Assembly (NCBI GenBank): GCA_009914755.4
Contig: CP086569.2
Location: 256,001 to 320,000, forward strand
Origin: the human T2T-CHM13v2.0 reference genome, Homo sapiens
DNA: 64,000 nt
Reading direction: 5' to 3'
The position numbers and the translations under genes are program-made. Positions 14,562-44,820 of the stretch are shown piece after piece; positions within the stretch are counted from its first letter, which is position 1; each line of letters starts with the position of its first letter. The notes beneath the pieces were generated by a model. The model did no database searches, had not been told where the DNA came from, and saw only the letters and a program-made list of their open reading frames with translations.

Positions 14562-14690
14562 CAGCCTCACATCTGCCGACATCGGGGGCTGGAGGATTCT
14601 CCGTCGTGGGGCGTCCTGTGCCCTGTGGGGTGTCGGGGACATGTTCTCACTCGGAGGACACATTGATTCAAACCATAGGATACACAGTTG
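14562..14690 (-). repeat. Inverted copy (no. 1) of the 'junction' element of the GATA-array module, followed by one VNTR-like 40-bp unit
   Basis: ctcagcctcacatctgccgacatcgggggctggaggattctc is the reverse complement of the junction gagaatcctccagccccaaatgtcagcagaggtgaggctgag at 42361. The following ctccgtcgtggggcgtcctgtgccctgtggggtgtcgggg resembles the 41-bp VNTR unit. Confidence 0.8.
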
Positions 14691-15340
14691 ATTCATACAT
14701 GTATGATTGATAGGTGATTGGTTGACAGATAGTTGATGGATAGATATTGATATAGATGCATGATTAATAGGTGATTGACAGATGATAGACATTAATATAA
14801 ATGTATGATTGATAGATTGGTTGACAGATGATAGATAATTGATATAGGTGCATGATTAATAGGTGATTGACAGATAATTGATAGGCATTAATATAAATGT
14901 ATGATTGATAGATGATTGGTTGACAGATAATTGATATAGACACATGATTAATAGGTGATTGACAGATAATTGATAGACATTAATAGAAATGTATGATTGA
15001 TGATTGGTTGACAGATGATTGATAATTGATATAGATGCATGATTAATAGATGGTTGATAATTGACAGATAATTGGTATAGATGCATGATTGATAGATGAC
15101 TTATTGACAGACAATTGATACATAAGCGATACAGATGCATGATTGATAGGGAATTGATTGACAGATGATTGATAATTTATATAGATGTATGACTGATCAG
15201 TGATTGGTTGATAGGTAATTGATATAGATGCATGATTGACAGATGATTGGTTGTCAGATAATTGACTGATAGTAATGGATAGCTGATTAATAGATAGATA
15301 ATTGATTAATCAATAATTGATAGATGATAGATAAAGAATC
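14690..15340 (-). repeat. AT-rich minisatellite (period about 92 bp, about 7 units) that is the reverse complement of the TATCAAT-type arrays at 43275-44815
   Basis: gattgataggtgattgacagataattgatatagatgcatgattaataggtgattgacagat. Its reverse complement ctatatcaattatctgtcaatcacctatcaatc matches the tatatcaattatc[ct][ag]tcatacctatcaatca units downstream. Confidence 0.85.
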
Positions 15341-15362
15341 TCTCATGCCCAGGCAGCTTTCT

Positions 15363-15404
15363 CAGCTCTGGCACTGCTGATGTTTGGGACTGGAGGACTC
15401 TCTG
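15363..15404 (-). repeat. Inverted junction copy no. 2 at the start of the big VNTR
   Basis: ctcagctctggcactgctgatgtttgggactggaggactctc versus ctcagcctcacatctgccgacatcgggggctggaggattctc at 14562. Confidence 0.75.
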
Positions 15405-41650: not shown

Positions 41651-42360
41651 CCTCATTTCCTCATCGGGAAAAATGTACCTGAAAATAGCGCCTGCCTCTG
41701 CGTGTTGTGGTAAGGAAGCAATGCCATTATTTATGTCTCATTTATGTCTCATGCTGTGGCTTGAGACTGTGTCTGTTTATGCTGCTCTGGTTTGTGGTGG
41801 AGGCTGCCGTCTGTCAGCCTCTGCACCTGCCGTCTGTCAGCCTCTGCACCTGCTCTGAAGTTTTCCTCTCGGTGGTACCCACCCATCATCCTGCTGCCCT
41901 TGAGTTCCCAGGAGCCCACAGGAGCTGCACTTTCTCCAGGCCTTTTGCCGGTGGAGCTGCCTCTTGGAATGTGCGTCTCCATCCGATGCACTCTGTTTTC
42001 GTGTGAAAATCCATGGGAATAAAAAGGCTCTTTTTGTGCTGAAAAATTGAGCCCAGGGGTTCAGCCAGCAGAGGACTCTGTGGGTATAAATATGAATGGA
42101 GAGGATTCTAAATATATAGCAGAGCAGAAGTCAGATGTTTGTGGAGAGGTGAAACGGCCTGGCCAGGTTCTTGGAACTTTAGAAATGAGGATGGCTTCCG
42201 GGGGAATTGGGGAGCGACTGTTCTCAAGTGGGGATGAACATGCACCCCGACGGACACTCGGCACTGTCTGGGGCAGTTCTGGGTGTCGTAACTGGGAGGG
42301 GGGTGCTCCTGGCACCTGGTTTGTGGAGCCCGGGGATGCTGCTCACCACCTTACAGTGAC

Positions 42361-43020
42361 CACAGAGAATCCTCCAGCCCCAAATGTCAGCAGAGGTGAG
42401 GCTGAGAGACACTATCTGAGGGACTCTATCTATCATCTGTCAATCAATCAATCCATCTCTCAATCTATTATCTATCTATCTATCTATCTACCCACCTATC
42501 ATCTATCATCTATCTATGTATCTATGTATCTATCTACCTATCATCTATCTATCTATCATCTATCTATGTATCTATCTATCTATCTATTATCTATCTATCC
42601 ACCTATCATCTATCTATAATCTCTCTCTCTCCCAATCATCCATCTATCCATCCATCCATCCATCTATCCATGTATCCATTATCTATCATACATCTATCTA
42701 TTCATCCATCCATCATCTATCATCTCTATCATCTATAAATCAATTTATCCATCATCTGTCATTCATCCATCCATCACCCATCTTTATTATCTATCATCTA
42801 TCTATCCATCTATCATTCATCTATCATCTACCCATCCATTACCTATCTATCTCTATCATATATAAATCAATCATCTATCATCCACCAATCTACCTATTTA
42901 TCTATATCTGTCTATCTACCTTTATCTATTATCTATCATCAATCTTTATTATCTATCATCTATCTACAGATCTATTTATTGACCCATTATCTATCTATTA
43001 TCTATCTACCTATCTAATCT
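42361..43020 (+). repeat. Module copy 2: junction (42361-42425), then a GATA-type (TCTA/TCAT/TCCA)n array (42426-43020)
   Basis: cacagagaatcctccagccccaaatgtcagcagaggtgaggctgagagacactatctgagggactctatctatcatctgtcaatcaatcaatc is near-identical to 38617-38700. Confidence 0.9.
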
Positions 43021-43149
43021 GTGCTTTTCAGCTGCTGCCGATTGTCTCCTCTGAGGACACTTTGTCAGTCTCTGGGGACACTTTTGGTTGTCTGGATTGT
43101 GGAGTGAGGGTGCTCCTGGATTGGGAGTGAGGGTGCTTCTGGTCGCTGG

Positions 43150-44820
43150 TGGGTGAAGCCCAGGGACACTGCTCAACACCCTACAGTGCACAGATCAGCC
43201 CCACCAGAGAGAATCGTCCAGTCCCATGTGTCAGAAGTACCAGGGCTGAAAGACACTGCCTGAGGCTGAGACAATCTCTGTTTGTCCATCTATCACCTAT
43301 CAGTGATCTATCAGTCAATTATCTACCTATTAACTGTCTATATCAATTATCTGTCATACCTATCAATCAGCTATCAATCATTAATCATCTGTCTATATCA
43401 ATTATCCATCATACCTATCAATCAGCTATCATCAATCATCTATCTATACTAATTATCCATCATACATATCAATCAACTAACAATCATCAATCATCAAGCA
43501 TCTATATCAATTATCCATCAAACCTATCAATCATATATCATCAATCATCTATCTGTGTGAATTATCCATCATACCTATCAATCAGCTATCAATCGTCAAT
43601 CATATATATCAATTATCCATCATACCTATCAACCATCTATCAATCATCAATCATCTATATCAATTATCTGTCATACCTATTAATCATCAATCATCTATAT
43701 CAATTATCCATCATACTTATCAATCAACCATCTATCTATATGAATTATCCATCATATCTATCAATCAACTACCTATCATCAATCTATATCAATTATCCAT
43801 CACACCTATCGATCAGCTATCTATCAATCATCAATCATCTATATCAATTATCCATCACACCTATCAATCAACTATTTGTCAATTATCAATCATCTATATC
43901 AATTATGCATCATACCTATTAACTATCATCAATCATCTATCTATATGAATTATCCATCATACCTATCAATCAACTACCTATCAATCTATATCAATTATCC
44001 ATCACACCTATCAATCAACTATTTATCAATTATCAATCATCTATATCAATTATGCATCATACCTATCAACTATCTATCATCAATCATCTATATCAATTAT
44101 CCATCATACCTATCAATCAGCTATCAATCGTCAATCATATATATCAATTATCCATCATACCTATCAACCATCTATCAATCATCAATCATCTATCTATATC
44201 AATTATCTGTCATACCTATTAATCATCAATCATCTATATCAATTATCCATCATACTTATCAATCAACCATCTATCTATATGAATTATCCATCATATCTAT
44301 CAATCAACTACCTATCATCAATCTATATCAATTATCCGTCACACCTATCGATCAGCTATCTATCAATCATCAATCATCTATATCAATTATCCATCACACC
44401 TATCAATCAACTATTTGTCAATTATCAATCATCTATATCAATTATGCATCATACCTATCAACTATCATCAATCATCTATCTATATGAATTATCCATCATA
44501 CCTATCAATCAACTACCTATCAATCTATATCAATTATCCATCACACCTATCAATCAACTATTTATCAATTATCAATCATCTATTTATATCAATTATGCAT
44601 CATACCTATCAACTATCTATCATCAATCATCTATATCAATTATCCATCATACCTATCAATCAGCTATCAATCATCAATCCTTGATCTATATCATTTATGC
44701 ATCAATCATCAATCATCTGTATCAATTATCAATCATCTATTTACCTATCAAATCAACAATCTATCATCTTTCATCATATCTATCAATTGTCCATCAGTCA
44801 GTTATCTACCTGTCTATTCA
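43150..44820 (+). repeat. Module copy 3 (most diverged): pre-junction (43150-43202), junction (43203-43270), then a TATCAAT-rich array (43275-44820) with about 55-bp units in a higher-order repeat of about 540 bp (about 2.8 copies)
   Basis: ctcaacaccctacagtgcacagatcagccccaccagagagaatcgtccagtcccatgtgtcagaagtaccagggctgaaagacactgcctgaggctgagac. The array unit is tatatcaattatccatcatacctatcaatca.ctatcaatcatcaatcatc. The block ctatcaatcagctatcaatcgtcaatcatatatatcaattatccatcatacctatcaaccatctatcaatcatcaatcatc recurs at about 43565 and about 44105. Confidence 0.9.

What the first reader, a model, noticed from the sequence alone, without database searches (positions are those of the whole stretch)
14562..44820. 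Modular repeat family (pre-junction + junction + GATA/TATC array) present three times directly and once-plus inverted, 24-30 kb apart
The same ~65-bp junction (gagaatcctccagccccaaatgtcagcagaggtgaggctgagagacac) heads three separate tetranucleotide-type arrays at 38617, 42361 and 43203 on the plus strand. Its reverse complement occurs at 14562-14603 and 15363-15404, flanking an AT-rich array (14690-15340) that is the reverse complement of the TATCAAT array at 43275-44820. The ~40 bp immediately upstream of the junction in copy 3 (ctcaacaccctacagtgcacag...ccccaccagagag) is homologous, on the opposite strand, to the unit of the 3.9-kb VNTR at 15395-19283. The inverted block is therefore the same module, in which the pre-junction segment alone was amplified about 95-fold. 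This is a macro-scale duplicated and inverted architecture that simple repeat masking would report as unrelated simple repeats. Inverted paralogous arrays about 25 kb apart are classic substrates for inversion and other rearrangement.
Basis: seen in the sequence. Interest (0 to 1): 0.7.

Follow-up and report, generated by a model that had tools for sequence, protein, structure and literature searches.

The report
Old transposon copies with repeat arrays
The shared "junction" is the tail end of an ancient, dead cut-and-paste transposon in primate DNA; it was copied locally together with a neighbouring simple-repeat array, and in one copy a 41-base inner piece grew into a 3.9-kb minisatellite, which is an ordinary kind of genome decay product.

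Summary
Five copies of one about 55-bp junction exist: three on the + strand (38.6, 42.4, 43.2 kb) and two on the - strand (14.6, 15.4 kb). The 3.9-kb VNTR unit is homologous to the segment just upstream of the junction. The left AT-rich array is a true inverted relative of the 43.3-44.8 kb array.

The junction is not locus-specific. It is the 3' end of a 221-bp dispersed non-autonomous hAT-type DNA transposon, with terminal inverted repeats and TCTAG-like target sites. I recall it as MER58-like. A 19-mer from its consensus pulled at least 120 metagenome contigs of primate host DNA, and 117 of them carry the element.

The local copies are paralogues of a single composite module, namely element, short flank and array. 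They share derived substitutions, a 3' flank and array type. None of 83 dispersed copies has such an array.

The VNTR is an internal expansion of consensus positions about 128-171, and the rest of the element lies on both sides of it.

The inverted arms are only 67-72% identical, and the longest exact match is 22 nt. They are therefore poor present-day inversion substrates.

Verdict: an ordinary TE-derived minisatellite plus old local duplications, of low interest.

The parts
14545..14552 (-). CCTTCGTG, an 8-bp direct repeat immediately 3' of copy A. It is the candidate target-site duplication partner of 19413-19420.
   Evidence: 7 of 8 positions match the 8-mer 5' of copy B. None of 69 dispersed-copy flanks reaches 7. 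Sequence read.
14553..14633 (-). Copy A: the 3' part of the MITE (consensus about 132-214), ending GGCTGAGAAACCAG. A weak, unconfirmed 5' remnant may extend to about 14683.
   Evidence: nhmmer hits (E 1.2e-08 with the profile built only from dispersed copies). 81-85% identical to C1 and C2. The upstream 67 nt is homologous to the stretch after array C3.
14680..15345 (-). Array B: AT-rich minisatellite with 46/92-bp higher-order units. It is the inverted paralogue of array C3.
   Evidence: TRF; 68-69% minus-strand matches; shared unit-specific 14-mers.
15346..15353 (-). First 8 nt (CCTGGGCA) of the 3' flank shared with copy C3.
   Evidence: The B and C3 flanks match at 16 of 24 ungapped positions. 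The null maximum is 15 in 345 comparisons.
15354..15439 (-). Copy B, 3' part of the MITE (consensus about 128-214).
15399..19284 (-). VNTR: units of 39, 41 and 47 nt in 80- and 88-nt dimers, about 93 copies. Each unit corresponds to MITE consensus positions about 128-171.
   Evidence: TRF; unit mapping; unit lengths.
19246..19412 (-). Copy B, 5' part of the MITE (consensus 1-167), starting CAGTGTGGTTCTCAGCC, which is the 5' terminal inverted repeat.
   Evidence: nhmmer E 3.5e-18; BLAST to C2 and C3; sequence read.
19413..19420 (-). CCTTAGTG, the 8-bp sequence immediately 5' of copy B. It is the candidate target-site duplication partner of 14545-14552.
38611..38670 (+). Copy C1: only the last 57 nt or so of the MITE (consensus about 159-214), followed by the shared flank ACTGAGGGACTC at 38671-38680.
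   Evidence: 96% identical to C2 over 52 columns.
38681..39620 (+). Array C1: a degenerate TCTA/TCCA-type array.
   Evidence: TRF. It shares 124 distinct 12-mers with array C2.
42215..42414 (+). Copy C2: a near-complete MITE (consensus 6-213, lacking about 147-163), followed by the flank TCTGAGGGACTC.
   Evidence: nhmmer E 2.5e-23; alignment.
42425..43016 (+). Array C2: a TCTA-type array.
   Evidence: TRF.
43019..43258 (+). Copy C3: a complete MITE (consensus 3-214, with a 23-bp internal duplication at 43092-43142), followed by the flank CCTGAGGCTGAGACAATCT.
   Evidence: nhmmer E 5.6e-23; TRF.
43275..44820 (+). Array C3: a TATCAAT-type minisatellite with about 51-bp higher-order units. It is the paralogue of array B.
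   Evidence: TRF.
44819..44876 (+). Possible start of a sixth copy (D), CAATGGTTTGCAAACAGGATGATTTT, cut by an Alu at 44877. This is weak evidence.
   Evidence: It aligns to consensus positions 1-27 (12 of 2000 shuffles reach the score) and to the stretch after array B (1 of 2000). nhmmer does not detect it.

Best explanation
The window is primate DNA. An ancient non-autonomous hAT-type DNA transposon (a 221-bp MITE, which I recall as MER58-like) lay next to a TCTA-type microsatellite. A composite module, made of the element, about 20 nt of 3' flank and the array, was then duplicated locally several times. It now stands in tandem at C2-array-C3-array and at B-array-A. It stands once more at C1 as a younger partial copy, and in inverted orientation at B/A relative to C3.

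In copy B a roughly 41-nt internal segment of the element (consensus about 128-171) expanded into a 3.9-kb minisatellite. The expansion presumably went by replication slippage and unequal exchange, and the two ends of the element remain on either side of it. The microsatellites matured into two classes of higher-order AT-rich arrays.

What is shown: the transposon identity of the junction, the paralogy of the copies, and the internal origin of the VNTR. What is inferred: the order and mechanism of the duplications. Nothing suggests a function. These are decaying repeats.
For: (1) Primate context. TRF consensus units are Alu sequences.

(2) Family identity. A consensus recalled independently of this window matches C2, C3 and the 5' part of B almost end to end (E 2.5e-23, 5.6e-23, 3.5e-18). 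It also matches the 3' ends of C1, A and B. VNTR units map to positions 128-171.

(3) The family is dispersed. A 19-mer from that consensus hit at least 120 metagenome contigs. Of these, 117 carry the element and 66 carry it nearly full length. 36 of them also carry an Alu, which points to primate host DNA. Five hits in bacterial genomes carry no element.

(4) Data-derived consensus. Forty-eight non-redundant copies give a 221-bp consensus with sharp boundaries. Its terminal inverted repeats are CAGTGGTTCTCAAC and GTTGAGAAACCCTG, and the flank consensus is TCTAG-like on both sides.

(5) Paralogy rather than independent insertion. B, C2 and C3 share 15 derived states against 3.2 expected (0 of 5000 simulations), and all five copies share 6 against 0.23 expected. 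The B and C3 3' flanks match at 16 of 24 positions beyond the transposon terminus. The flanks after array B and after array C3 are homologous (1 of 2000). The arrays pair as B with C3 and C1 with C2. None of 83 dispersed copies has such an array downstream, against 4 of 5 local copies.

(6) Internal origin of the VNTR. The 5' part of the element lies at 19246-19412 and the 3' part at 15354-15439, on either side of the VNTR.

(7) Precedent. TE-derived minisatellites are common: at least 23% of human minisatellites and satellites derive from TEs (PMC3389668).
Against: The family name rests on memory. No Dfam or Repbase library was available.

The dispersed copies were selected with one 19-mer, so a subfamily that carries the 'shared derived' states could have been missed.

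B, C2 and C3 are only 67-70% identical to one another. That is little above their identity to unrelated copies (mean 63%, maximum 70.5%), so the case for paralogy leans on flanks, arrays and shared states.

The 5' flanks of B and C2 show no homology. The 3' flank of A beyond its first 8 nt shows none either. The boundaries and order of the duplications therefore remain unresolved.
Confidence: 0.8

Rival explanations
1. Composite (macro-)transposition. A hAT transposase used the 5' end of one element and the 3' end of the next. It mobilised element-flank-array-element as one unit to a linked site in inverted orientation. That event created the left block B...A.
For: The whole left block is bracketed by an 8-bp direct repeat, CCTTAGTG at 19413-19420 and CCTTCGTG at 14545-14552. 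Seven of 8 positions match, and none of 69 control flanks reaches 7. Homology to the right block stops at the outer termini of B and A. Transposition of hAT elements to linked sites is established knowledge, not tested here.
Against: The same 8-bp repeat is expected if B-5' and A-3' are simply the two ends of the original insertion site and the interior arose by in-situ duplication. The other 3' flanks match the 8-mer at 4-5 of 8 positions, as diverged copies of one target-site duplication would. The counterpart of A in the right block is cut by an Alu, so the outer boundary there cannot be compared.
Confidence: 0.1
2. Independent insertions. Several members of the same MITE family inserted separately into, or next to, a TCTA-rich region, helped by the TCTAG-like target preference of the family. 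No module was ever duplicated.
For: The family's flank consensus is TCTAG-like. TCTA arrays offer many near-matches to such a target. The copies are about as diverged from each other as from unrelated copies.
Against: There is a clear excess of shared derived states. A shared non-array 3' flank lies between the element terminus and the array. The post-array flank is shared. None of 83 dispersed copies adjoins such an array. C1 and C2 are 94-96% identical across the terminus and into the flank.
Confidence: 0.06
3. One reading: the inverted arrays and junctions are active substrates for recurrent inversion of the intervening 24 kb or so.
For: Inverted homologous blocks do exist about 24-28 kb apart.
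Against: Identity is 67-72% in the element and flank, and 68-69% in the arrays. The longest exact match is 22 nt. Recombination falls 20-fold when uninterrupted homology drops from 232 to 134 bp (PMC2583991).
Confidence: 0.03
4. Chance or low-complexity resemblance, with no true homology.
For: The arrays are low-complexity, and the identities of B and C3 hover near 70%.
Against: No shuffle matches the junction. Profile E-values reach 1e-23. Unit-specific 14-mers are shared only in the inverted orientation.
Confidence: 0.01

Closest known systems
MER58-type non-autonomous hAT-Charlie DNA transposons of mammals (Repbase lists MER58A-D under hAT: PMC5753468). The assignment of this sequence to that name is from my memory.
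   Same: A roughly 221-bp element. It has 14-nt terminal inverted repeats beginning CAG, a TCTAG-like 8-bp target, hundreds of diverged dispersed copies in primate DNA, and no coding capacity.
   Different: The local copies are more decayed, at 69-74% identity to the consensus. One is interrupted by a 3.9-kb expansion of its own interior. Four of the five are followed by an array that no sampled dispersed copy has.
Transposon-derived minisatellites/VNTRs of the human genome (Ahmed and Liang 2012, PMC3389668; Alu-derived minisatellites of Jurka and Gentles, cited there).
   Same: The tandem array's unit is an internal piece of a transposon, and the rest of the element flanks the array. It expanded by local duplication of units into higher-order dimers.
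   Different: The source is an old DNA transposon rather than a young retrotransposon. Copy number is large, at about 93.
Low-copy repeats / inverted segmental duplications that mediate NAHR (PMC2583991).
   Same: Paralogous blocks lie in inverted orientation tens of kb apart.
   Different: They are far too short and too diverged: no stretch of more than 22 identical bases, against over 95% identity across kilobases in NAHR-competent repeats.

Membership tests
hAT-type non-autonomous DNA transposon (MITE), MER58-like | Terminal inverted repeats at defined ends | tested here: met
   The data-derived consensus starts CAGTGGTTCTCAAC and ends GTTGAGAAACCCTG. Conservation drops sharply outside these ends. 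Copy B starts CAGTGTGGTTCTCAGCC, and copy A ends GGCTGAGAAACCAG.
hAT-type non-autonomous DNA transposon (MITE), MER58-like | 8-bp target-site duplication | tested here: inconclusive
   Family level: the flank consensus is TCTAG-like on both sides. 15% of copies reach 7 of 8 or better, against 5% in mismatched controls, which is a noisy test. Locus level: CCTTAGTG and CCTTCGTG bracket B...A at 7 of 8, with 0 of 69 controls reaching 7. This repeat brackets the two-copy block, not a single copy.
hAT-type non-autonomous DNA transposon (MITE), MER58-like | Dispersed, multi-copy, with unrelated flanks | tested here: met
   At least 120 contigs were hit; 117 carry the element; 48 full-length copies have non-redundant flanks.
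hAT-type non-autonomous DNA transposon (MITE), MER58-like | Match to the curated Repbase/Dfam consensus of that name | not testable with these tools
   No TE library is available. A consensus recalled from memory matches at E 1e-23 and agrees with the data-derived consensus.
Transposon-derived minisatellite | Repeat unit homologous to an internal segment of the transposon | tested here: met
   Units map to consensus positions 128-171. They are 75-85% identical to the same segment of copy C3.
Transposon-derived minisatellite | The remaining parts of the same element flank the array in the correct order and orientation | tested here: met
   Consensus 1-167 lies at 19412-19246(-) and consensus 128-214 at 15439-15354(-).
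NAHR-competent inverted low-copy repeat | Long stretches (over about 130-230 bp) of uninterrupted or near-perfect identity | tested here: not met
   The longest exact inverted match is 22 nt. Identity is 67-72%. The threshold comes from PMC2583991.
Local duplication of a composite module (paralogy of the five copies) | Homology extends beyond the transposon terminus into the flank, and the copies share derived substitutions | tested here: met
   B and C3 flanks match at 16 of 24. C1 and C2 are 94% identical across the terminus. Shared derived states number 15 against 3.2 expected. This is not shown for the flank of A or for the 5' flanks.

The most novel reading that the evidence does not exclude
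The left block (element B, flank, array, element A) would be a composite 'macrotransposon'. A hAT transposase would have moved it as one unit, using the outer ends of two neighbouring MITE copies. It would have carried a microsatellite to a linked site in inverted orientation, leaving the 8-bp duplication CCTTAGTG/CCTTCGTG. This would be a fossil of macrotransposition in a mammalian genome.
Probability: 0.1. Interest if true: 0.35.

Novelty: already known. Interest (0 to 1): 0.12.

Why it matters
It matters little beyond annotation. The case shows that an apparently striking modular repeat family in a VNTR-rich primate region comes down to two things: one decayed DNA-transposon family, and local duplication of an element-plus-microsatellite module.

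The practical value is threefold. (a) The 3.9-kb VNTR at 15399-19284 should be annotated as transposon-derived. It is likely to be length-polymorphic, which is an inference. (b) The inverted blocks should not be flagged as an inversion hotspot. (c) The same window holds another TE-derived array, the Alu-like 155-bp unit repeated 8 times, so this kind of decay product is the local norm.

Tried and rejected
- A search for printed consensus sequence in papers found nothing.
- The genome-contig scan with a second 19-mer gave 5 bacterial hits, none carrying the element. They are chance matches.
- Ten non-repeat ORFs were scanned against Pfam and gave no domain. The roughly 1000-aa ORFs over the VNTR in three minus-strand frames are what a stop-free 41-nt unit produces, not evidence of a gene.
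- The Rfam gathering scan of the window gave no match.
- The 5' flank of B was compared with the 5' flanks of C2 and C1. No homology appeared (z -0.5 and 1.1).
- I looked for an A-like copy to the right of 44820 and beyond the Alus. BLAST found nothing significant, and nhmmer found nothing on the Alu-excised sequence. Only a short match to consensus 1-27 turned up.
- I looked for a larger inverted segmental duplication around the modules. There is none. The other repeats between the two halves of the window are Alu and L1 fragments.
- The PRDM9-like 13-mer is absent from the VNTR.
- A first regular-expression test for arrays next to dispersed copies was miscalibrated, since it missed 3 of the 4 local arrays. 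It was replaced by a composition measure.
- The wide-offset TSD test is noisy because of target-site preference.
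Full report
**Context**

The window is primate genomic DNA. Several TRF consensus units are Alu sequences, and Alus flank the blocks in question at 13869-14174, 19525-19826, 39708-40006 and 44877-45180. 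Ten non-repeat ORFs have no Pfam domain, and Rfam finds nothing. The region is GC-rich and crowded with minisatellites.

**Checking the observation**

- The quoted junction is exact at 42365-42412 and has two mismatches at 38621-38668. No shuffle produces a match.
- BLAST links 38613-38713 to 42357-42457 at 94%.
- Both of those match 14556-14607 on the minus strand at 84-87%, and 15293-15405 on the minus strand at 70-73%.
- The third plus-strand copy (43203-43258) is much more diverged. BLAST links it only to 15313-15433(-) at 70.7%, and to VNTR units at 75-85%.
- TRF confirms the VNTR: 15399-19284, 41-bp unit, 93 copies.
- The left AT-rich array matches the 43.3-44.8 kb array on the opposite strand at 68-69% over 700-800 bp, in many registers.
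- These two arrays share unit-specific 14-mers such as TCTATATCAATTAT. The 14-mers are absent from the 38.7 and 42.4 kb arrays, and no 12-mers are shared in the wrong orientation.

**What the junction is**

The sequence looked to me like a mammalian hAT-Charlie MITE, which I recall as MER58-like. A 214-nt consensus written from memory, independent of this window, gave these nhmmer matches:

| Region | Consensus positions | E-value |
|---|---|---|
| 42220-42412 | 6-213 | 2.5e-23 |
| 43021-43257 | 3-214 | 5.6e-23 |
| 19408-19246(-) | 3-167 | 3.5e-18 |
| 38616-38669 | 161-214 | 0.00045 |
| 14633-14555(-) | 132-212 | 0.0023 |
| 15439-15357(-) | 128-211 | 0.011 |
| each VNTR unit | 128-171 | weak (0.23 or higher for single units) |

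To replace memory with data, I scanned metagenome contigs for a 19-mer of that consensus that does not occur in the window's own copies.

- At least 120 contigs matched. Of these, 117 carry the element and 66 carry it nearly full length. Thirty-six also hold an Alu, so they are primate host DNA.
- Forty-eight copies with non-redundant flanks give a 221-bp consensus.
- Conservation falls abruptly at both ends of that consensus. The terminal inverted repeats are CAGTGGTTCTCAAC and GTTGAGAAACCCTG, and the flank consensus is TCTAG-like on both sides.
- A control scan of bacterial genomes gave five hits without the element.

The junction is therefore the last 55 nt or so of a dispersed DNA-transposon family, and the pre-junction is its positions 128-171. 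Repbase lists MER58A-D under hAT (PMC5753468). Whether this is exactly that family could not be tested.

**Anatomy**

In element orientation, the left block on the minus strand reads as follows:

- TSD-like CCTTAGTG (19420-19413).
- Copy B, 5' part (19412-19246).
- VNTR (19284-15399), with units of 39, 41 and 47 nt arranged in 80- and 88-nt dimers.
- Copy B, 3' part (15439-15354).
- Flank CCTGGGCATGAGAGATTCT.
- Array B (15345-14680).
- Copy A (14633-14553, 3' part).
- CCTTCGTG (14552-14545).

The right block on the plus strand reads as follows:

- C1, only the last 57 nt or so of the element (38611-38670), then flank, then array C1.
- About 2.6 kb containing Alu and L1 insertions.
- C2 (42215-42414), then flank, then array C2.
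- C3 (43019-43258), then flank, then array C3.
- A short stretch that aligns to consensus positions 1-27 (12 of 2000 shuffles reach the score), cut by an Alu at 44877.

**Paralogues or independent insertions?**

- The local copies are 69-74% identical to the consensus.
- B, C2 and C3 are 67-70% identical to one another, barely above their identity to unrelated copies (mean 63%).
- B, C2 and C3 nevertheless share 15 derived states against 3.2 expected. All five copies share 6 against 0.23 expected. No simulation out of 5000 reaches either value.
- Beyond the transposon terminus, the B and C3 flanks match at 16 of 24 positions. The null maximum is 15 in 345 comparisons.
- C1 and C2 stay 94% identical across the terminus.
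- The sequences just after array B and just after array C3 are homologous (1 of 2000 shuffles).
- The arrays pair as B with C3 and C1 with C2.
- None of 83 dispersed copies has a low-G, ATC-rich array downstream, whereas four of the five local copies do.

I conclude that a composite module of element, flank and array was duplicated locally.

- The C1/C2 duplication is the youngest.
- A is closest to C1 and C2 (81-85%).
- The B/C3 inverted pair is old.

The order and mechanism of these duplications are inferred, not shown. The 5' flanks of B and C2 show no homology. The flank of A beyond its first eight bases shows none either. No wider inverted duplication surrounds the modules.

**The 8-bp repeat**

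CCTTAGTG lies 5' of B and CCTTCGTG lies 3' of A. They match at 7 of 8 positions, and none of 69 control flanks reaches 7. Two readings fit.

- The left site is the original insertion, and its interior grew later by in-situ duplication.
- The block B-array-A moved as a composite transposon.

I cannot separate the two. The second is the most novel reading that the evidence leaves open.

**Mechanism**

Shown:

- The VNTR is an internal expansion of one element copy, with both ends of the element retained on either side.
- The arrays are related by descent.

Inferred:

- Expansion went by replication slippage and unequal exchange.
- The higher-order dimers point to stepwise amplification.

TE-derived minisatellites are common. 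At least 23% of human minisatellites and satellites derive from TEs (PMC3389668).

**The inversion claim**

The longest exact match between the inverted blocks is 22 nt, inside the arrays. In the element parts it is 17 nt or less. The direct C1/C2 pair shares 38 nt at most. Recombination in mammalian cells drops 20-fold when uninterrupted homology falls from 232 to 134 bp (PMC2583991). These blocks are therefore not credible NAHR substrates today.

**Verdict**

The explanation is ordinary: a decayed DNA transposon, an adjacent microsatellite, old local duplications and a TE-derived VNTR. Novelty is low, and I score interest at 0.12.

Noticed in passing
window 40973-41171 and 41349-41547: Inverted repeat with 199-nt arms, 94% complementary, and a 177-nt spacer. 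By eye the arms are the 3' end of L1 ORF2/3'UTR, an identification made from memory. Related L1 pieces lie at 20768-21262 and 59382-59881.
   Followed up: partly
window 35942-37179: Tandem array of a 155-bp unit, 8 copies, 98% matches. The unit looks like an antisense Alu segment. It is a second, young TE-derived minisatellite in the same window.
   Followed up: no
window 7450-8296 and 10275-11116: Two GC-rich minisatellites: a 65-bp unit in 13 copies (97% matches) and a 20-bp unit in 42 copies (91% matches).
   Followed up: no
window 8459-9137 vs 12334-12933: A direct repeat of about 690 bp at 73.5% identity, not obviously Alu or L1. It brackets the 9.2-11.1 kb minisatellite cluster.
   Followed up: no
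window 48454-50050 and 25586-26684: Large complex TG/CA-rich arrays. One contains a 383-bp higher-order unit in 3.3 copies at 94% matches, and the other a 230-bp unit in 2.3 copies at 95%.
   Followed up: no
window 63075-64000: A direct tandem duplication with a period of about 356 bp, 79-93% identity, running to the end of the window.
   Followed up: no
window 43092-43142: A 23-bp unit in 2.2 copies inside copy C3 (CTGGATTGTGGAGTGAGGGTGCTC). This is a small incipient tandem duplication within the same transposon family that gave rise to the large VNTR in copy B.
   Followed up: partly
window 27607-27723 vs 31226-31340: An inverted match of 117 bp at 71% identity, with low copy number in the window. 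It may be another ancient interspersed repeat.
   Followed up: no
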